From a virus (taxonomy: Duplodnaviria > Caudoviricetes), in IMG/VR virus record IMGVR_UViG_3300021962_000022: DNA of 64,000 nucleotides; one strand, 5' to 3'. Every line of letters begins with the position of its first letter. Position 1 is the first letter of the stretch. A model generated the notes under the pieces. That model made no database searches. It saw only the letters and a program-made list of their open reading frames with translations, and was not told the origin of the DNA. Both the position numbers and the translations under genes were made by a program. Shown piece after piece: positions 20,873 to 62,531 of this stretch.

Positions 20873-21604
20873 CTATTTTTCTAATGTTGGTTTTAACCAA
20901 AGAATATTTTTTTTGAATATATAGTTTCTCAATTTTGGGTAGTCATTGAGAACCCTCAAAGTTTTAATTGTATCGTGTTTAAAACATTTTAGTAACTCCT
21001 CTCTAATCCTCTCTACGGAAACTACTTTCATTTTTTTGTTGTAATCATAATCTTGAATTACTAAATCCATGAACGCACCAATTGTAAATCCTTTGGTGAT
21101 AGAGAATCTGATGGCTCTTAGAATACGAAGCGGGTCATCGTTAAATGTTTCATTAACATTTAATGGTGTTACCAACATACCCCTCTTTAAATGTTCCAAC
21201 CCATTAAAGAAATCGATTATCTTACCATTTTCATCTTTTGCCAATGCGTTGAGTGTAAAGTCTCTCCTTTCTAAGTCATCGAACAAAGTACCGGGTTTGA
21301 TAATTGGTTGTCTTGTGCCGGGAATATATCCAACTTCTTTTCTCGCCATGACGAAATCGGCAACACCTTCGTACTTGTGTTCTTTTGGGAACTTTGCTCG
21401 AATTGTGAAACAATCAGGGGTAACTAAAAAGATTTCAAAGCCCTCAAGTTTAAGAAATTCTTCAAGAACGTCAAACATTGAATGTGCAGAACTAACATCT
21501 CTTAGTAATTCATCAGATGGTACCGCAACATAATCCACATCCTTAGATTCTAATTCTAAGATTTCATCTCTCACTTTTCCTCCAACTTCGTAAAACTTAA
21601 ACAT
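20873..21604 (-). CDS. cca: class II tRNA nucleotidyltransferase (CCA-adding / poly(A) polymerase family)
   Basis: VGGxVRD, DVDY, DLERRDFTLNALA, DDPLRILRAIRF and ERIREEL motifs. Confidence 0.9.
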   Translation of the reverse strand: MFKFYEVGGKVRDEILELESKDVDYVAVPSDELLRDVSSAHSMFDVLEEFLKLEGFEIFLVTPDCFTIRAKFPKEHKYEGVADFVMARKEVGYIPGTRQPIIKPGTLFDDLERRDFTLNALAKDENGKIIDFFNGLEHLKRGMLVTPLNVNETFNDDPLRILRAIRFSITKGFTIGAFMDLVIQDYDYNKKMKVVSVERIREELLKCFKHDTIKTLRVLNDYPKLRNYIFKKNILWLKPTLEK

Positions 21605-47665: not shown

Positions 47666-49072
47666 TTATTTTGTAATATATTCATATTTTTCTTTAACCC
47701 ACGTTGTACTTGAATGTTTTAACATTCTCTTAGTCAACTCAGAGATTGGAGAATTGAAATGGGGTTCAACCGGACTATTGGCTTTACCATATGACATGAT
47801 TAGGGAACCCTTTTTATATTCCAAGTTGATGTTTGTTCGATTATGTTTCATGGACAAATAGATGTACACAACTCCTTTGTTAAATTGTTTTGATAAACAA
47901 TTCTTCATTGCGTAACCTTCTTTGATGAAGTCCTCTTCACTTTTCAAGACCCTTACCTTAAAAATTTTATCGTCAATCACAATGTCCGACTCAATATCAT
48001 TTAAAAAGTTTTCACTATATGAATACCTTACTTTATATCCCTTTTTAAAGTGATTTTTTATATTTTCTAAATCATTTAAAAGTAATTCTAATGAAATTAA
48101 ATCCCTGACATTAAATCTAGTAACAATACTTTTAGAATCTAAAAATTCTCTTAGTGTTAGTACTTTATTTATTGTCTCAAGTAAATCATATTGTTGAATT
48201 TGATTAATTGATACCTCACCCCAATTTTTAATCACATTAACCAAACAAGCTCTTTCCTTTTCATTATTCAATGAGTGATATTTTTTGAACAGAATCCTAT
48301 TAGATGTTAATTCAACCCAATTAATCTGTCTTAAATAATCAACATACCCCTCACCAAATAATTTACATAAGTAACTGAGTGTTTTTATGTCGACATTTCG
48401 ATTTTGATACTCGTTTAAACTTGCTATTAGGTATTTTGATTTAATACCATAAGAATCCAAAACCGCTGGTAAAAATTTGTTCTCATTTGTTTTTAACCAT
48501 TTTGATTTTGGATAATCCTTAAGAATTGAAATGTATATTGCGTCGTGATGTTTTATCTTTTTTTTGTGGAGATGGAAATCAACCAATAAATCATATAACG
48601 AGTTTATTGAAAAGTTTTTTTGGTAATCTTTTTCTACCGGTTGATTTATTTCTGGTTTAATTTTTGAAACTATAATATTCGTGATTTCCTCAATCATTAA
48701 ATCATATTTCTTACCCCAAAACCCTCTTCTCTTTTCACCTTTATAGAATCCATTTTCTATTAGGTACAAAACCGACTCAAAATTATTCTTCTTAATATTA
48801 TTCCTACCTCGAGCCCTTTCGGTTGGTGATTGGTTGGAGAGTTGGTAATATGTGTTTACGTCCCCATTTTTTAAATTTATTGTGAAACCATGATGTACTG
48901 TTAAAATGTTTTTGGTTCCGTAACGAAGATAGTCAAATGAAAAATCGGCAATATAATGTAACAAATTATCGAATTGATAAAGTTGGATTTCAGAAATTGA
49001 AGTCGTGTTATTAACTTTCGATTTCTTGTTTTGATAATGCCTGAATAACAAATCCATGTATAAAATATACAT
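47666..49072 (-). CDS. PcfJ-like domain protein (paralogue 1)
   Basis: C-terminal LKSEEDFIKEGYAMKNCL...IYLS; shares FLPAVLDSYGI-type segment with the neighbour. Confidence 0.65.
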   Translation of the reverse strand: MYILYMDLLFRHYQNKKSKVNNTTSISEIQLYQFDNLLHYIADFSFDYLRYGTKNILTVHHGFTINLKNGDVNTYYQLSNQSPTERARGRNNIKKNNFESVLYLIENGFYKGEKRRGFWGKKYDLMIEEITNIIVSKIKPEINQPVEKDYQKNFSINSLYDLLVDFHLHKKKIKHHDAIYISILKDYPKSKWLKTNENKFLPAVLDSYGIKSKYLIASLNEYQNRNVDIKTLSYLCKLFGEGYVDYLRQINWVELTSNRILFKKYHSLNNEKERACLVNVIKNWGEVSINQIQQYDLLETINKVLTLREFLDSKSIVTRFNVRDLISLELLLNDLENIKNHFKKGYKVRYSYSENFLNDIESDIVIDDKIFKVRVLKSEEDFIKEGYAMKNCLSKQFNKGVVYIYLSMKHNRTNINLEYKKGSLIMSYGKANSPVEPHFNSPISELTKRMLKHSSTTWVKEKYEYITK

Positions 49073-49095
49073 GGACTAAATTTTATTTTGTAGTA

Positions 49096-50970
49096 TTAAA
49101 AATGAACTTCCTGAATGCCATCCAACAATTGGTTAAATAAATCCATATCGTTTTCTTCCCTGTTAGGAACTTCCTTACCATTAATTTTAATCTTAACTTT
49201 TTTAACATCGATGTGATTCAAAAGTCGTTGGGTTGCAAATTTCTTTATTCTTTTTTTCAATATTTCTAAAGAATCGATAAAATAGGTTGGGGGTAGTTTG
49301 TTACAAAAGTATCTTTCTTGAATACATTCTCCCGATTTTTTATTGAATTCGCAAGTAACTCTATCGGTGTTTTCACCTGACCTCAGTGAAACAATCATAG
49401 ATGATTCTTTATTTGCGTAACTGGCAACACAATGATGCATGAAAGTACCCTCTTCTGAATACTCTTCCTCTCTTTTCAAAATTATTGGGTTGAATGTATG
49501 TTCAACATTTTCAAAAGACGTTTTAATTTGTTCTTGAACCAACCTAACCATTCTGTTGTCATATTGGTATTCAATAGACCACCCTTTCTTAATTAAAGAA
49601 CACATCTTTGTTAATTCCATATGTTCCGTATGAAAGTCAGGGTAATTTGACGCCCTCATTTTCATATTAGGGTCGTAATCCCTAATTTTTTCAATCATAT
49701 CAAAATGGTCTTTAAACAATGAATACAAACCTCTGACTGTTGTGGATTGTGTATCTTGTGATTTTGGATTTATTAATGAATTGACAATTTTAATAAGGTT
49801 TTCTCTATCCGTCTTATCAATATTCAAATGTCTTATACTGTTACCAACACCTCTCATTTCTAGAGGCACCGATGAAGTCATTGTGGCAACCTCATGTGTG
49901 AAAAATTTAATAGATTCCGGTTTCAGTGAACCAAGATATTTTGGATATTCTTTTCCAAGTAATCCACAAAAACATGAAAGTTCTTGTAAATTTAATTTCG
50001 GATTATCATGAAAAAGTTTTTTAACTAATTTAGAATTTATTCCAAAACTATCTAAAATTGATTGAACTAATTTTCTTTCATTTTTCTTGAGAAATTTTTC
50101 AGTTGGGTAATATGATTTAATTAACGGTGTAAAATTATTTGGTACCTTGATTTTCTTTTTCTCAACAAAAAATTTGATGAATTTAGTTATGAACTCATGT
50201 TTATCAAATAAATTCCCACATTGAGAGGGTAACTCTTTGATATACTCCTTAATCACATTTATAAATTCACTGTCGTCAAATACTTTTACATATTCATCAG
50301 CAACTTTTAAATCTTTATTTATACCACTTTTCACATTAAAAATGTAATTTGAATTTAAAAGTATTTCTAAAGTAGAAAATGAATTCTTTCTGAAGGACTT
50401 TCTTTTAGTACTTCCAAATGACATGTCACCAATTGTAAAATCACCTTTAACCAAATCAATAGTCAACGTATGAACTGATGATGATTTCCTAAAGTATTTC
50501 CAATTGAACTCCCTTCTTCTGTTGTTTTGATATAATCGTATGTGGAGTTTATTCTCTTTAATTTGAATTGTTCTCTCTGTTGTTACAATCCGTATTGCTG
50601 CTAAAGGATTCCCGTAATGTCTTTTAAGGTGTTTTTCGTTTGATGTGTAACAAGGTTCCTTTGTTAATTTTTGGAATGCAACATATTCCTTTTGAGTATT
50701 ATTGTAAAAGTATTTCGTTCTTTTCCCTGTCTTTGGGAAAGGTTCTAATTTAATATCAACGTAAGAGGGAATCTTTTTACGAATTACCTGAGAGGTTTGA
50801 ATCTCATTAAGAATCGTATCAATCGAAGGTTCAATTGATTCAAACGGCAAATCGAAATCATCACTAAGAATAACCGGTTTCTTTTCGTTTACTCTCTCAT
50901 TCTCAATAGTACAGTTGTCCCTTATAAGGTCAATTACAGAATATGTAAATCTTTGTTTGATTAGTTCCAT
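49096..50970 (-). CDS. PcfJ-like domain protein (paralogue 2)
   Basis: C-terminal EEGTFMHHCVASY...SLR...T.EF...Q.R..CN motif. Confidence 0.75.
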   Translation of the reverse strand: MELIKQRFTYSVIDLIRDNCTIENERVNEKKPVILSDDFDLPFESIEPSIDTILNEIQTSQVIRKKIPSYVDIKLEPFPKTGKRTKYFYNNTQKEYVAFQKLTKEPCYTSNEKHLKRHYGNPLAAIRIVTTERTIQIKENKLHIRLYQNNRRREFNWKYFRKSSSVHTLTIDLVKGDFTIGDMSFGSTKRKSFRKNSFSTLEILLNSNYIFNVKSGINKDLKVADEYVKVFDDSEFINVIKEYIKELPSQCGNLFDKHEFITKFIKFFVEKKKIKVPNNFTPLIKSYYPTEKFLKKNERKLVQSILDSFGINSKLVKKLFHDNPKLNLQELSCFCGLLGKEYPKYLGSLKPESIKFFTHEVATMTSSVPLEMRGVGNSIRHLNIDKTDRENLIKIVNSLINPKSQDTQSTTVRGLYSLFKDHFDMIEKIRDYDPNMKMRASNYPDFHTEHMELTKMCSLIKKGWSIEYQYDNRMVRLVQEQIKTSFENVEHTFNPIILKREEEYSEEGTFMHHCVASYANKESSMIVSLRSGENTDRVTCEFNKKSGECIQERYFCNKLPPTYFIDSLEILKKRIKKFATQRLLNHIDVKKVKIKINGKEVPNREENDMDLFNQLLDGIQEVHF

Positions 50971-54115: not shown

Positions 54116-55414
54116 TTAATTTGATAAAGGTGCTTTAATTGATGGGTGTGATTGGTATCCTTCCACCGAAAAATCCTCTGTATTTAAATGTCCGAACAAC
54201 GATGTTGACTCAGATAATGATTTGTAAAATTCATCAGTTTTACCGTGAACTAATTTAGGTAACTGAAAAGGTTGTCTTGTACGATTTGGTATTTTATAAA
54301 TTTCATAGTATTCGGACATACCTCCACCAAATGGTGCCAAGTCATTTAACGCGTCTCTGTACCCTTTTGGTCCCATCGCATTCTTTAACATTTCTTCTCT
54401 TTCTTCAAAAGTATATCTACGACCTATTTGTTCTTTTGCCTGTTCAATATGATTTGAATACAGGTGTACATCACCCAAGTTACCAATCAATTCATCAGGA
54501 ACCATGTTTACTTCTTTAGCAATGATTTCAAGTAATAAACCGTATGATGCTATGTTGAATGGTAAACCAAGAAATGTATCTACTGAACGTTGATTCCACA
54601 TTAAAGAGATTGTTCTAGTTGGAATATTTTCCCAATCAATTTTAGTATCACTTCCTTTTAGTGCTTGATGTAAGTTATTCTTTAGGTATTGCATATCTCT
54701 AATTTCATTTCTTTCATCTTCACTCAACTCTCTTGTATAAACTTGAAATCCATAATGACAGGGTGGTAAAGTCATTTTATCCAATTCACCTACATTCCAA
54801 GCATTAACCATTAATCGTCTTGAGTCTGGATTTGTTTTAAGGTCGTTGATTAGATTCCAGATTTGGTCTTTACCAACTAAATAATCTTTATGTTGTTCAA
54901 CTCCATTTACCACTTTCAAAATATCGTGCTGTCCTTCGTGGAAACCCATCCAGTTTCTCCATTGTTTACCATAAATTGGTCCTAACTCACCCCATTTCTT
55001 AGCAAACTCATCATCGGTTTTGATTTTGTCAATGAATTCTTCTATTGTAAATGGTTCAGTTAATGTTCTATTTTTCTTAGAATTCTCTAATAATTTGGTT
55101 TTACCAACATATTCACCTTTATTATATCTTTTAATATAGGCTTGATAAGCATCACCATCCCAAATATGACAACCATTATCAACAAGATATTTGATGTTGG
55201 TGTCACCTTTTAAAAACCATAGTAATTCAGTCACCATTGTCTTCCAGGCCATTTTCTTGGTTGTAAGTAACGGAAATCCCTCACTCATTTTATGACGTAT
55301 TTGTCTACCAAATACCGAAATGGTACCTGTACCTGTTCTATCTTTTTTCTCTATACCATTATCCAAGATATCTTGAAGTAACTTTTGGTATTGTATATCA
55401 ATGTTATTCATCAT
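54116..55414 (-). CDS. thyA: thymidylate synthase with insertions
   Basis: DRTGTGT, ELLWFLKG, GPIYGKQWR, SRR, LPPCH, QRSVD...GLPFNIASY and HLY.NH motifs. Confidence 0.97.
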   Translation of the reverse strand: MMNNIDIQYQKLLQDILDNGIEKKDRTGTGTISVFGRQIRHKMSEGFPLLTTKKMAWKTMVTELLWFLKGDTNIKYLVDNGCHIWDGDAYQAYIKRYNKGEYVGKTKLLENSKKNRTLTEPFTIEEFIDKIKTDDEFAKKWGELGPIYGKQWRNWMGFHEGQHDILKVVNGVEQHKDYLVGKDQIWNLINDLKTNPDSRRLMVNAWNVGELDKMTLPPCHYGFQVYTRELSEDERNEIRDMQYLKNNLHQALKGSDTKIDWENIPTRTISLMWNQRSVDTFLGLPFNIASYGLLLEIIAKEVNMVPDELIGNLGDVHLYSNHIEQAKEQIGRRYTFEEREEMLKNAMGPKGYRDALNDLAPFGGGMSEYYEIYKIPNRTRQPFQLPKLVHGKTDEFYKSLSESTSLFGHLNTEDFSVEGYQSHPSIKAPLSN

Positions 55415-57174: not shown

Positions 57175-58305
57175 TTATTCTTCGTCTTTTCTATAATTTT
57201 CCAATAGTTCGTCATTTGAAAGTGCTCCGTATTTTGATGCAATACTTTCAACATCAACTTCGACGTTCATCATGTGAATTGTATTATTTAATTCTTCTGC
57301 CAATCTTAAAGTATCTGAAATAACTTTTACAATTCTATATGGGTCAGCGTGAGATGCTGGTCTTCTATCCTCAAGATATCCCACCCAAGTATCTGCAACC
57401 GATTTAGGGACCCTAATCGACGCTCCTCTGTCTGAGAATCCCCAACTAAATGTGTCAATTGACTGTGTTTCAAATTTACCTGTTAATCGTAAATGATTAT
57501 CGGAACCATAATTTTCAATATGTTCTTTGGTTCTTGATTCAAACGCCCTAAAAATCGAATTGAAGTATTCTTCTCCACCCGTAGTTCTCATTTTTTCATT
57601 TGAGAAGTTGGTATGCATTCCTGAACCGTTCCATTCACCGTGTTGAATTGGTTTAGGGTGTAACTCAATTTGATAACCGTACTTTTCAGCAATTAGAAAC
57701 AAGAAGTATCGTGACATCCACAAATCATCTGATGCTTTAAGTTTACCCTTTTCAAAAATTTGGTATTCCCATTGTCCCATGGCAACTTCCGCATTCGTTC
57801 CCTCGATGTTTATGTTATATTTCAAACACATATTCAAATGGTCTGTACTTACTTCTCTACCATACATTTGACCACCGACACCACAATAATACTTACCTTG
57901 TGGGTCAATCATTGTTCCTGAATCAAACCCCAATATATTTTTGTTATGTCCTGAACGTATAAAGTATTCTTGTTCGAGTCCTACCCAAAAATTTGTATCC
58001 TCTTTACCAACTTTCGCTCGAGTATTTGACTCGTGAATTTGATTATTACCATCTAAAACTTCGCACAACACATATATTGTATCACTGTAATTCTCTGTTG
58101 CATAAAATCTAACAGGTTTCAAATAACAATCTGAGAAATTACCTTCAGCTTGTTTTGTTGAACTGCCATCAAAACCCCAATTAGGAAAGTCGGAAATATT
58201 TAATTCACTTACTGATTTGTTTAAATCAATTATTTTAATTTTACTTCTAAGGTTTGGTTCTGGTGTATACCCATCTAACCAAACATACTCTACTATTCTT
58301 TTCAT
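57175..58305 (-). CDS. glnII: glutamine synthetase type II
   Basis: EYVWLDG, LRSK, W.FDGSST.QA, GLEQEY, QG.YYCGVG, NAEV..GQWE, WNGSGMHTNFS, RLTG..ET, RGASIR and EDRRPAS motifs. Confidence 0.95.
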   Translation of the reverse strand: MKRIVEYVWLDGYTPEPNLRSKIKIIDLNKSVSELNISDFPNWGFDGSSTKQAEGNFSDCYLKPVRFYATENYSDTIYVLCEVLDGNNQIHESNTRAKVGKEDTNFWVGLEQEYFIRSGHNKNILGFDSGTMIDPQGKYYCGVGGQMYGREVSTDHLNMCLKYNINIEGTNAEVAMGQWEYQIFEKGKLKASDDLWMSRYFLFLIAEKYGYQIELHPKPIQHGEWNGSGMHTNFSNEKMRTTGGEEYFNSIFRAFESRTKEHIENYGSDNHLRLTGKFETQSIDTFSWGFSDRGASIRVPKSVADTWVGYLEDRRPASHADPYRIVKVISDTLRLAEELNNTIHMMNVEVDVESIASKYGALSNDELLENYRKDEE

Positions 58306-60493: not shown

Positions 60494-60694
60494 ATGCCTA
60501 AACAACAAACAAAACTGACAAGTGTTAATATTATAGACGATGTTTATAAGAGATTCAAGATTAAAACAATTGATGGGTCGATTAACTTACAAAAATTAGT
60601 AAACAGGTCTCTCGACCTTTATAACTCAAGAGAAGATTTTAGAAAACAAATAGATAATCACAATGGTTTGGCACCAAATGGTTCTAAATTTTAA
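60494..60694 (+). CDS. small putative ribbon-helix-helix DNA-binding protein
   Basis: KLTSVNI strand followed by two helices (LQKLVNRSLDLY). Confidence 0.55.
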   Translation: MPKQQTKLTSVNIIDDVYKRFKIKTIDGSINLQKLVNRSLDLYNSREDFRKQIDNHNGLAPNGSKF

Positions 60695-60723
60695 TTTGTG
60701 ATTACTTTTTCTTATATTTTGGT

Positions 60724-61074
60724 ATGCACTTATCTAAATTCTTACTTTTAAGAGGTAGTGATTATTTTTTAACGAACACTGTCGAAGTTAGACATGGTAT
60801 TCGTAGAATTAATGCTCAATGGTCTCCTGAATTAGCTCAGGATATTGAAGAGTATCACGGTATCAATGTGGAAGAAGAATTAGTAAGATTATTATCAGAA
60901 GAACTTGCAAGGGAAATCGATTCACAAATTATTAATACATTAAGACAGGGAGTAACAATTGCTCAGGACTTAGTTCCGATACAACCAATGAACGAACCTG
61001 TTGGACATCTTTTTTGTTTCGATTATTCCTACAACAATTACACATTCAAAAATTTCAAATTATTAAGAGGATGA
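60724..61074 (+). CDS. miniature, order-permuted T4 gp23-like capsid-protein derivative
   Basis: RRINAQWSPELAQDIEEYHGINVEEELVRLLSEELAREID then IAQDLVPIQPMNEPVGHLF; both are gp23 signature blocks. Confidence 0.8.
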   Translation: MHLSKFLLLRGSDYFLTNTVEVRHGIRRINAQWSPELAQDIEEYHGINVEEELVRLLSEELAREIDSQIINTLRQGVTIAQDLVPIQPMNEPVGHLFCFDYSYNNYTFKNFKLLRG

Positions 61075-62531
61075 TAACAATAGGTTACAGCACAAGAGAA
61101 TCAAATCCCAAGTTTCAAGAATACTTAAAGAAAACTTGTGGTCACCCAAAAGTTCAGGTTATTGAAAAGGTGAACAATGGTGAAAAAAGTTTGTCACAAA
61201 CATACAATGAAATAATAAATGAATCAGAACATGACATTGTAGTTTTTTGTCACGATGACATTTATTTTGAAACCAGTTCTTGGGGTCGAAAATTAATGAA
61301 ACACTTTGAAGAAAGTGAGTATGGTATTTTAGGTGTTGCTGGTACAACCAACATTCATGAAAGTGGTAGATGGTGGACAGACAATACCAAAATGGTTGGT
61401 ATTGTTAACCACGAGAACGAAGGTAAAAAATGGGAATCTAGATATGCGAACGGTATACCAAATTCAATTCATCAAGTTTGTTTGGTCGATGGTTTGTTTA
61501 TTGCAATCTATAAGAATAGAATTAAACACACTTTCAATGAATCGGTACCCGGATTCCACTTCTACGATATGACTTTCTGTACTGAAAATCATTTAAGTGG
61601 TGTTCAGATTGGTGTGATATATAATATCAGATTAACCCATAAGTCTATTGGGATGACTAATGAATCTTGGGAGAAGAATAGGGAAGAATATATTGAGAGA
61701 TTCAAGAATGAATTACCTATATCCATAACACCGAAGATTAATTACGATGTGATTAAACCAAAACAAGTTAAGGAGAAATATAATCTGATTGTTCAAACAT
61801 CTAACAACAGTGAGAAACTCGTAAACTTTTTTGAGAGAATTAAAGAATTACCAGTTTACGATAATCTATTAATCTCATTGATTTCAACCGATAGTAACAT
61901 TGAGGATGTAAGAAAGTATGAATCTGAAAATGTTTTAATTTATGAAGGGTTTTTTGAAACATTAAATAAAAACCTATCTGTATTAAAGTGGGATGACTCG
62001 TTCATGAATTCTAAATCGGATTTACTTTTCTTTTCAACTGACGCGGTAACCATTCTCAATGACGTTTTTTCAAGTATGTATGGTATCTTCAAAAATGAAA
62101 GAAGTAGTTTTGGATGTGCATTCCCATCAGTTTTGGAATCTGATGGAACCATCTTCTCAAATGGTTTGGATATCATCCAAAATAAAGAAGAACAGTTTAA
62201 TTTAATCTTTAAAAATAAGTCATCATATTTCAACATACTTCACGGACATTTTCCAATTAATTTTGGCAGTATCAGTGATTTTTTCGCAACAACATCATCA
62301 AATTTAAAGATGATAGATTGGTTTGATATTAATTTAGAAACATCAATCTATAATTTAGATTTTGCTTTGAAATCATTCCTTAAAAAACGTAAAGTTTATG
62401 TTGATACGAATAGTGTCGTTATGATTGACATGGCGTCTCAATTTGAAAAGATAGATGGTGAATTAAAACAAGTTTTAGGTCAATACATGAACGCGCCTGA
62501 AATAAGAAAAAATGTGAAACAAATAAGATGA
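61071..62531 (+). CDS. glycosyltransferase (GT-A fold, probably two domains)
   Basis: YNEII...VVFCHDD...GVAG...VDGLFIA...FHFYD motifs; start at 61071. Confidence 0.8.
   Translation: MITIGYSTRESNPKFQEYLKKTCGHPKVQVIEKVNNGEKSLSQTYNEIINESEHDIVVFCHDDIYFETSSWGRKLMKHFEESEYGILGVAGTTNIHESGRWWTDNTKMVGIVNHENEGKKWESRYANGIPNSIHQVCLVDGLFIAIYKNRIKHTFNESVPGFHFYDMTFCTENHLSGVQIGVIYNIRLTHKSIGMTNESWEKNREEYIERFKNELPISITPKINYDVIKPKQVKEKYNLIVQTSNNSEKLVNFFERIKELPVYDNLLISLISTDSNIEDVRKYESENVLIYEGFFETLNKNLSVLKWDDSFMNSKSDLLFFSTDAVTILNDVFSSMYGIFKNERSSFGCAFPSVLESDGTIFSNGLDIIQNKEEQFNLIFKNKSSYFNILHGHFPINFGSISDFFATTSSNLKMIDWFDINLETSIYNLDFALKSFLKKRKVYVDTNSVVMIDMASQFEKIDGELKQVLGQYMNAPEIRKNVKQIR

What the first reader, a model, noticed from the sequence alone, without database searches (positions are those of the whole stretch)
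60724..61074. Miniature, circularly permuted major-capsid-protein derivative
Seen: a 116-aa ORF containing RRINAQWSPELAQDIEEYHGINVEEELVRLLSEELAREIDSQII followed by IAQDLVPIQPMNEPVGHLFCFDY. Established: in T4 gp23 the IAFDICGVQPMNSPTGQVF block lies far N-terminal to the RQLKAAYSIELAQDLRAVHGMDADAELSGILATEIMLEINREV block. Here the order is reversed and the blocks are joined by a short linker, keeping only the spine-helix/P-domain core. The ORF sits away from any structural module, overlapping a glycosyltransferase operon. Inference: not simple decay but a re-engineered capsid fragment. It could be a dominant-negative assembly inhibitor against competing T4-like phages, a decoy for capsid-sensing immunity (e.g. 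CapRel-type), or a docking subunit for virion glycosylation.
Basis: partly seen in the sequence, partly recalled or inferred. Interest (0 to 1): 0.82.

Follow-up and report, generated by a model that had tools for sequence, protein, structure and literature searches.

The report
Permuted mini capsid-protein gene in huge phage
A huge freshwater phage carries an intact, optional 116-residue gene made of two of the most conserved pieces of the T4-type capsid protein joined in reversed order; it belongs to a large undescribed family of such mini-genes that change fast and probably work by imitating the edge of the real capsid protein.

Summary
ORF 60724-61074 (+, 116 aa) matches Pfam Gp23 (E 3e-20). 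Residues 18-78 align to the spine-helix block of a gp23 profile (T4 gp23 263-325). Residues 79-107 align to the N-terminal block (T4 about 105-131), so the order is reversed. It is not a chimera or debris: independent assemblies from several studies hold it, and more than 50 sequence clusters of 80-225 aa proteins share the arrangement, all in uncultured phage contigs; those with a CheckV estimate (three mini-bearing, two relatives) extrapolate to about 300-360 kb. The glycosyltransferase link is lineage-specific: a syntenic relative lacks the gene, 0 of 80 related glycosyltransferase loci have one, and a second subfamily sits beside Mom-like genes. The gene is optional and its protein evolves fast (15 non-synonymous against 7 synonymous changes, versus 25 against 116 next door). 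The blocks the family keeps hold the T4 head-length mutation clusters and the short helix that contacts neighbouring capsomers. My best reading, at modest confidence, is a competitive mimic of the capsomer edge, acting on capsid assembly or on a capsid sensor. Function is untested, and structure predictions were inconclusive. The scan noted similar leader-tagged capsid mini-genes in another 322-kb phage.

The parts
60724..61074 (+). Mini capsid-protein gene, 116 aa plus stop; permuted derivative of the gp23-type major capsid protein
   Evidence: homologues
60724..60774 (+). N-terminal stretch (residues 1-17) with the motif SKFLLLRG. It aligns colinearly with the capsid-protein segment just upstream of block B (I-domain linker 2, the E-loop return side)
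   Evidence: The blastp alignment to the proxy capsid protein L200 starts at residue 11. The motif is shared with the C-terminus and with neighbouring genes in relatives
60775..60957 (+). Block B (residues 18-78): P-domain strand, short acidic helix (WSPELAQD) and spine helix; equals T4 gp23 about 263-325
   Evidence: AF2 predicts helices 35-45 and 49-82 at low confidence. T4 head-length mutations A268, A275, D285 and D287 map here (PMC9546572)
60958..61044 (+). Block A (residues 79-107): IAQDLVPIQPMNEPVG plus a strand; equals T4 gp23 about 105-131, which lies in the part of gp23 where the Gol region sits (Gol residues from memory)
   Evidence: Gol background (PMC3014915)
61045..61071 (+). C-terminal motif FKNFKLLRG, a near-repeat of the N-terminal motif
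61071..62531 (+). Glycosyltransferase (486 aa, Glyco_tranf_2_5), first enzyme gene of the sugar operon; its start overlaps the mini gene's stop
60494..60694 (+). 66-aa ribbon-helix-helix-like ORF, conserved directly upstream in all relatives with or without the mini gene
60721..61060 (.). Roughly 340-bp stretch present here but absent from the syntenic relative L119 (a presence/absence difference; boundaries good to about 15 bp)

Best explanation
The ORF encodes a real, optional small protein. It is an old, circularly permuted derivative of the T4-type (HK97-fold) major capsid protein. It keeps only P-domain edge elements: the strand and short acidic helix that contact neighbouring capsomers, the spine helix, and the strand that precedes the E-loop-equivalent linker. 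Its new ends lie where the I domain and its linkers were cut out. I propose that it works by competitive mimicry: it offers the capsomer-edge surface of a capsid protein without being able to build a shell. It would thereby bind whatever normally meets that surface. The most likely target is the P-domain periphery of capsid-protein capsomers, which would disturb or modulate capsomer-to-capsomer joining, plausibly that of competing T4-like phages in the same cell. Shown: the homology, the permutation, the family, the optional status and the fast protein evolution. Inferred: the fold, the binding and the target.
For: Both blocks are significant and their order is permuted. The family has dozens of 50%-identity clusters with the same B-then-A order, and ESM Atlas clusters of 64, 148 and 483 members. 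The block-B consensus of the minis is almost the same as that of full-length capsid proteins, including the charged RRLRA and PELAQD residues, although minis are more diverged from each other (49% against 62% mean identity). The three blocks the family keeps are A with the N-arm, B, and C (= T4 423-478). They contain three T4 head-length mutation clusters: A94/G97 (A66 of that cluster lies outside the blocks); A268, A275, D285, D287; and T457, R460, G461. They also contain the short acidic helix at the quasi-threefold contacts (PMC9546572). The gene is optional: it is absent from syntenic L119 and from two complete relatives that hold both the glycosyltransferase and a full-length gp23. Protein evolution is fast: 15 non-synonymous against 7 synonymous changes, versus 25 against 116 in the adjacent gene (Fisher p 3e-6). 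In subfamily 2, minis show 11 non-synonymous changes in 214 codons against 11 in 1546 flanking codons. Identity to the proxy capsid protein of this lineage is only 47-52%, so this is not a recent copy.
Against: No binding was shown. The AF2 model of the monomer is poor (pLDDT 58). The window version lacks the N-arm helix and the P-loop block. A mimic of a conserved surface could also poison the phage's own assembly. Within this lineage, changed positions do not clearly avoid conserved columns (p 0.13), so relaxed constraint is possible. Contigs from two RNA libraries cover the glycosyltransferase but not the mini gene, which is weak evidence at low depth. The repeated end motif and the low synonymous divergence are not explained by this reading.
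Confidence: 0.35

Rival explanations
1. It is a decoy for host immunity that senses unassembled capsid protein. The mini protein would display conserved capsid epitopes (the Gol-like block A, the spine-helix block B) and soak up a sensor such as a Lit-type protease, CapRel or an Avs-type receptor without triggering it.
For: It is optional, patchily distributed and fast-evolving. It lies among DNA-modification genes: an N6/N4 methyltransferase here and Mom-like genes in subfamily 2. Block A aligns to T4 gp23 about 105-131, in the first quarter of the protein where the 29-residue Gol region lies, and Gol is described as the most conserved part of gp23. Lit and CapRel are said to detect short capsid motifs.
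Against: From established knowledge, the Gol peptide alone activates Lit, so an extra copy could trigger the defence and not block it. Many family members lack block A altogether. No sensor is known for block B, and I know of no precedent for such a decoy.
Confidence: 0.22
2. It is a docking or specificity subunit for the sugar operon. The mini protein would tie the glycosyltransferases to the capsid protein or to another virion substrate.
For: The start and stop codons overlap with the glycosyltransferase gene. The same subfamily sits inside sugar operons in four other mini-bearing lineages, at different positions.
Against: An 84%-identical glycosyltransferase in the same genomic setting works without it. 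None of 80 related loci has one, and complete relatives lack it. Subfamily 2 is not in sugar operons. The parts it keeps are P-domain core and edge elements; the I domain that protrudes from the T4 capsid surface is the part it lost.
Confidence: 0.1
3. It is a leader-tagged cargo protein. The shared N-terminal motif would be a targeting or processing signal, like the capsid-targeting sequence of T4 internal proteins, and the protein would be packed into the head and delivered to the next host.
For: Neighbouring small genes in relatives start with the same motif. An earlier scan note describes a row of tiny genes that share one start peptide in another 322-kb phage.
Against: There is no [LI]-x-E cleavage motif after the leader in this ORF. 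The motif is also at the C-terminus. The N-terminal stretch can be read simply as the capsid-protein segment upstream of block B.
Confidence: 0.1
4. It is a selfish or neutral cassette: a capsid-gene remnant that spreads by recombination and is kept open by chance or only for translational coupling, with no function of its own.
For: There is a presence/absence difference at an identical site. Its synonymous divergence is five times lower than the neighbour's, which suggests a separate recent history. dN/dS is 0.5-1.0 within the lineage. The end motifs are repeated, and the order of small genes is swapped between L011 and L014.
Against: Reading frames are intact in more than 50 diverged clusters, and the consensus still matches that of capsid proteins. 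At deep divergence its identity (44-54%) is similar to or higher than that of the adjacent enzyme (35-55%).
Confidence: 0.1

Closest known systems
T4 gp23 major capsid protein and its vertex paralogue gp24 (Pfam PF07068, HK97 fold)
   Same: There is clear sequence homology in the two most conserved blocks: the short P-domain helix with the spine helix, and the N-terminal strand region.
   Different: It has 116 aa instead of 420-670. It has no A domain, I domain, P loop or propeptide. Block order is reversed. It lies outside the head module, it is optional, and it cannot form a shell subunit.
Gol peptide of T4 gp23, which binds EF-Tu and activates the Lit protease
   Same: Block A is homologous to the part of gp23 that holds the Gol region.
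   Different: Gol is a segment of the full capsid protein, not a separate gene. No binding to EF-Tu was tested here, and many family members lack this block.
Capsid-derived dominant-negative restriction factors of retroelements (yeast Ty1 p22, mouse Fv1, sheep enJS56A1; from my own knowledge)
   Same: They are truncated or altered capsid proteins that interfere with assembly by mimicry, and they evolve fast.
   Different: They belong to eukaryotic retroelements, have unrelated folds and are not permuted. This is an analogy of mechanism only.
Capsid-size redirectors of phage satellites (P4 Sid, SaPI CpmB, PLE TcaP; from my own knowledge)
   Same: They are small accessory proteins that act on another phage's capsid assembly at capsomer contacts.
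   Different: They are not derived from the capsid protein itself. They are encoded by satellites, not by a huge phage.
T4 internal proteins with a shared capsid-targeting leader in a variable locus (from my own knowledge)
   Same: They form a variable set of small genes that share an N-terminal peptide, and they evolve fast.
   Different: No protease cleavage motif is present here. The leader-like motif recurs at the C-terminus, and the body is derived from the capsid protein.

Membership tests
Gp23 family (Pfam PF07068) | Sequence score above the curated cut-off | tested here: met
   73.3 bits against a cut-off of 24.4
Gp23 family as a functional major capsid protein | Full HK97 fold with A domain, P loop and C-terminal strands, in colinear order | tested here: not met
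   Only profile positions 88-116 and 300-360 of 532 are present, and in reversed order
Gp23 family as a functional major capsid protein | Location in the head module beside the portal, prohead protease and scaffold genes | tested here: not met
   No head genes appear among the 28 window ORFs scanned against Pfam/PHROGs and no other gp23-like piece in six frames of the window. For contrast, true capsid genes sit beside such genes in L007
Circularly permuted protein | The same segments as the parent in rotated order, with the old ends joined and new ends at an internal site | tested here: met
   The order is B then A, and the N-terminal stretch continues the parent sequence upstream of B. The three-dimensional fold is not confirmed
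Gol-type EF-Tu-binding peptide | Homology to the Gol region of gp23 | tested here: inconclusive
   Block A aligns to T4 gp23 90-131. The exact Gol residues are recalled from memory, not from a tool
Gol-type EF-Tu-binding peptide | Binds EF-Tu domains II-III and activates Lit | not testable with these tools
   Needs biochemistry
T4-type internal protein with capsid-targeting sequence | N-terminal leader of about 10 aa ending in [LI]-x-E, cut by the prohead protease | tested here: not met
   The first 18 residues contain no Glu, and the first Glu (residue 21) is preceded by T-V
Obligate partner of the Glyco_tranf_2_5 glycosyltransferase | Co-occurrence with the enzyme across relatives | tested here: not met
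   0 of 80 loci have it; it is absent from syntenic L119 and from complete genomes G010 and G011

The most novel reading that the evidence does not exclude
Huge phages carry a widespread, undescribed class of P-domain-only, circularly permuted capsid-protein derivatives. These are sometimes split into adjacent mini-genes that share a leader. They would act as weapons or shields in conflicts centred on capsid proteins, either by poisoning or re-shaping the capsid assembly of rival T4-type phages, or by blinding host receptors that sense capsid protein.
Probability: 0.45. Interest if true: 0.85.

Novelty: new variant of a known kind. Interest (0 to 1): 0.66.

Why it matters
Capsid proteins are now known to be a main target of bacterial immune sensors. 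Capsid assembly is also the point at which satellites hijack their helpers. A large family of small genes, encoded by the phages themselves and made only of the capsomer-edge pieces of the capsid protein, would be a new kind of player in these conflicts. It would also be a natural tool for probing which contacts set capsid size, because the blocks it keeps coincide with three clusters of T4 head-length mutations. In addition, it is a clear natural case of circular permutation of the HK97 fold at the E-loop position. The family is abundant in freshwater and marine metagenomes, yet it did not turn up in my searches of GenBank phage records or in the literature I could search.

Tried and rejected
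1. Complex prediction of the adjacent subfamily-2 pair (78-aa C-block ORF plus 141-aa B-A ORF of L025) returned no verdict, and both chains folded poorly. This is not evidence either way.
2. AF2 of the window ORF with a 39-row alignment gave pLDDT 58 with only two helices. I therefore ran no fold search on it.
3. Megablast and tblastn of the region and the ORF against 50,697 GenBank phage records found nothing. tblastn with relative P0011 hit only full-length capsid genes, including the apparent 'mini' in LR756508, which is the N-terminus of a 544-aa capsid protein.
4. Scans of viral and metagenome contigs with the single protein found few loci. The first alignment was too diverse to search with.
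5. The genome-contig scan found only full-length capsid genes in mis-binned phage contigs.
6. P0005-P0007 looked like short homologues but are pieces of a frameshifted full-length gene in a low-coverage long-read contig.
7. I rejected the idea that the C-terminal LLRG merely encodes a Shine-Dalgarno site: most genes of these operons have A-rich upstreams without such a site, and the motif varies at the amino-acid level.
8. I dropped the idea that the end motif is a vestige of the capsid C-terminal strand, because P0016 has both.
9. Ubiquitin-like, clamp-binding and protease-site readings of the motif did not fit its variants.
11. The block-B tree has too few columns to prove a single origin.
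12. MAFFT misplaced C-block fragments when they were mixed with minis, so I did not use that alignment (A7).

Full report
**The feature.** The window holds an ORF at 60724-61074 on the + strand, encoding 116 aa. Its TGA stop overlaps the ATG of the next gene (ATGA at 61071-61074). That gene is a 486-aa Glyco_tranf_2_5 glycosyltransferase whose start, MITIGYST, is invariant among homologues. The listed TTG start at 61014 is therefore an artefact of ORF listing. The ORF matches Pfam Gp23 at 73 bits in two stretches and PHROG 138, major head protein.

**The permutation.** phmmer against solved T4 gp23 chains aligns ORF residues 26-88 to gp23 263-325 and ORF residues 64-103 to gp23 90-131.
- I built a profile from 29 full-length relatives. 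It places residues 18-78 on profile positions 300-360 (73 bits) and residues 79-107 on positions 88-116 (28 bits, iE 7e-9).
- Every full-length protein has the opposite order.
- No other gp23-like piece exists in the window in any of the six frames.

**Not an artefact.** Near-identical copies in the same setting occur in independent assemblies from NCBI, JGI and Logan. The stretch is held by runs from 16 studies, mostly freshwater. One 5.7-kb contig from another study spans mini gene and neighbours with 6 differences.

**The family.**
- A search restricted to proteins of similar length found 116-128-aa homologues at 54-97% identity.
- An exhaustive phmmer of 1.84 billion representatives gave 881 hits. 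The best ones are dominated by proteins of 80-225 aa that match the query end to end.
- Profile mapping shows about 40 of these clusters have the same B-then-A order. Others have block B only, and two have the normal A-then-B order in a short protein.
- The ESM Atlas holds clusters of small 'Gp23 domain' proteins with 64, 148 and 483 members.
- Three apparent short homologues (P0005-P0007) are pieces of a frameshifted full-length gene in a head module, and I set them aside.

**Two subfamilies.**
- Subfamily 1 includes the window ORF. Both ends carry the same short motif: here SKFLLLRG and FKNFKLLRG, elsewhere FKFGR, FKYFHD or FKFLRG at both ends.
- Subfamily 2 starts with KKIPxFxFExP and ends with a DDGSW...IKPHKFI extension.
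- In subfamily 2 loci L021, L024 and L025, a 75-78-aa ORF just upstream is the capsid C-terminal block (profile 468-527, 55-62 bits) and carries the same leader.
- One protein, P0016, has B, A and C in a single chain.
- The family therefore keeps up to three separated blocks and discards the rest.

**What the blocks are.**
- In T4, gp23 has P, A and I domains, and the I domain hangs on two linkers that are equivalent to the HK97 E loop. Residues 66-105 form the flexible N-terminal region, and one linker is 132-160 (PMC9546572).
- Block A ends at the start of linker 1. Block B starts after linker 2 and runs through the short P-domain helix and the spine helix.
- The ORF's N-terminal stretch aligns colinearly with the capsid segment just upstream of block B in the proxy capsid protein.
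- The new ends therefore sit where the I domain and its linkers were removed, and the end of the spine helix is joined to the N-arm side. This is a true circular permutation at the E-loop position.
- AF2 predicts helices 35-45 and 49-82, matching the short helix plus spine helix, but with low confidence (pLDDT 58) and no strands.

**Link to capsomer contacts.**
- The same paper places the head-length mutations A268V, A275T, D285V and D287V/N beside the short, negatively charged P-domain helix. That helix makes charge contacts with neighbouring capsomers at the quasi-threefold axes.
- It places a second group (T457A, R460C, G461S) in the P loop and a third group (A66D, A94V, G97S) in the N-terminus.
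- By the alignments, the first group lies in block B. A268, A275 and D287 correspond to ORF A31, A38 and E50. The most conserved family motif, W-S/T-P-E-L-A-Q-D (invariant among the closest relatives), is the short helix.
- The second group lies in block C (T4 423-478), and A94/G97 lie in the N-arm helix that most minis keep between B and A.
- The window ORF has B and the core of A, but not the N-arm helix or block C.
- The block-B consensus of the minis is nearly identical to that of capsid proteins, including the basic strand and the acidic helix, even though minis differ more among themselves.
- Keeping surface contact residues in a protein that has lost most of the domain suggests they are used for binding between molecules.

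**Context.**
- Within the window the gene follows glutamine synthetase, DUF192, an N6/N4 methyltransferase and two small ORFs, and it opens a sugar operon.
- Relatives at 44-54% identity have the same setting. In L018 and L008 the mini again directly precedes the glycosyltransferase. In L011 and L014 it is the third or fourth gene, beside an 80-91-aa ORF with the same leader, and the two are in swapped order.
- The association is not general. IMG/VR locus L119 has the same neighbours (RHH ORF differing at a few residues, glycosyltransferase 84% identical) but lacks the roughly 340-bp gene.
- None of 80 related glycosyltransferase loci holds a mini within 3 kb.
- Relatives G010 (99% complete) and G011 (100%) have the enzyme and a full-length gp23 but no mini.
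- Subfamily 2 lies beside Mom-like, DUF2828 and FKBP genes.
- CheckV-based estimates put the three mini-bearing contigs G001-G003 (15-50% complete) and relatives G007-G009 (61-76%) at roughly 300-360 kb once extrapolated.
- A-rich gene upstreams without Shine-Dalgarno sites, and a T9SS-signal protein in L025, hint at Bacteroidota hosts.

**Evolution.**
- Between the window and L001, the mini has 15 non-synonymous and 7 synonymous codon changes (dN 0.072, dS 0.12, ratio 0.59). The next gene has 25 and 116 (ratio 0.04; Fisher p 3e-6). Other neighbours have ratios of 0.007-0.085.
- The mini's dS is five times lower than the neighbour's, so the cassette may have a separate, more recent history.
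- In near-identical phages L024 and L025, the two mini genes have 11 non-synonymous changes in 214 codons, against 11 in 1546 flanking codons.
- Changed positions do not clearly avoid conserved columns (p 0.13).
- At deep divergence the mini keeps 44-54% identity, similar to or above the adjacent enzyme.
- The best available proxy for this phage's own capsid protein (G009, 587 aa) is only 47% identical in block B and 52% in block A. The gene is therefore an old derivative, not recent debris.
- In a block-B tree the minis group almost together, apart from most capsid proteins, with weak resolution.

**Reading.**
- The gene is real, old, optional and fast-changing, and it is made of the capsomer-edge pieces of the capsid protein. 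I think it most likely acts as a competitive mimic of that edge.
- The target may be capsid-protein capsomers, which would mean interference with or modulation of assembly, plausibly that of rival T4-type phages. Alternatively the target may be a host sensor of unassembled capsid protein.
- The glycosylation-docking idea is weakened by the co-occurrence data. A cargo reading and a neutral-cassette reading remain possible. None of these was tested by experiment.

**Unexplained.**
- The two ends carry the same motif, and it co-varies across the family: the within-protein score is 22.2 against 17.7 between proteins, with 0 of 10000 permutations reaching it. Relatedness was not controlled.
- The same motif starts neighbouring genes in relatives, including a 415-aa glycosyltransferase-like gene whose first residues nearly equal the window ORF's.
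- Contigs from two RNA libraries cover the glycosyltransferase from 61068 onward but not the mini gene, at very low depth.

**Literature.** Full-text searches found no description of such mini capsid genes. Earlier notes of this scan report similar leader-tagged capsid mini-genes in another 322-kb freshwater phage. They also report a mucin-like 5331-aa protein and a head module elsewhere in this genome; I could not check those.

Noticed in passing
L011:4966-5241 and L014:7762-8004: These 80-91-aa ORFs next to the mini gene start with the same leader (MGLLDTFKFG, MNNFKFFRGY) and end with a related motif (FKIFARERQ, FTLIARNRQ). Their order relative to the mini is swapped between the two loci. 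No family match was sought.
   Followed up: partly
L025:5739-5975, L024:3358-3594, L021:1451-1678: These are separate 75-78-aa genes made of the capsid C-terminal block (P loop and last strands), placed directly upstream of a B-A mini gene and sharing its leader. Between near-identical phages they differ by 8 non-synonymous and 2 synonymous changes.
   Followed up: partly
L119:2951-3001 versus window 60694-61071: A close relative has the glycosyltransferase 49 nt after the RHH ORF, with an A-rich upstream. The window instead has the mini gene, which supplies an AAGAGG just before the enzyme's start.
   Followed up: yes
P0063 and P0142 (proteins): These are natural deletion variants in which the start of block B is fused straight to block A at the repeated AQD/EEI words, removing the spine helix.
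   Followed up: no
P0019 and P0030 (proteins): These short proteins (158-190 aa) have the normal A-then-B order and a capsid-like N-terminus, so non-permuted mini versions also exist.
   Followed up: no
window 54116-55414 (-): This 431-aa thymidylate-synthase homologue is much longer than usual (Pfam match spread over residues 7-333), and relatives have a 399-aa form. It could be a nucleotide hydroxymethylase tied to DNA modification.
   Followed up: no
window 57175-58305 (-): A glutamine synthetase (376 aa) is encoded by the phage and conserved at 74-96% in relatives.
   Followed up: no
window 47666-50970 (-): Two adjacent large PcfJ-like proteins (467 and 623 aa).
   Followed up: no
window 20873-21604 (-): A tRNA nucleotidyltransferase homologue is present, although no tRNA gene was found in the window.
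   Followed up: no
G002:C1:73172-73285 (locus L111): There is a weak extra Gp23 match (16 bits, Pfam positions 222-259) in a 109-aa frame, far from the mini pair in the same 163-kb contig. It may be another capsid-derived piece.
   Followed up: no
window 60560-61700, RNA runs X15 and X16: Metatranscriptome contigs match the glycosyltransferase from 61068 onward with 0-3 differences, but none covers the mini gene. Depth is very low, and DNA carry-over cannot be excluded.
   Followed up: partly
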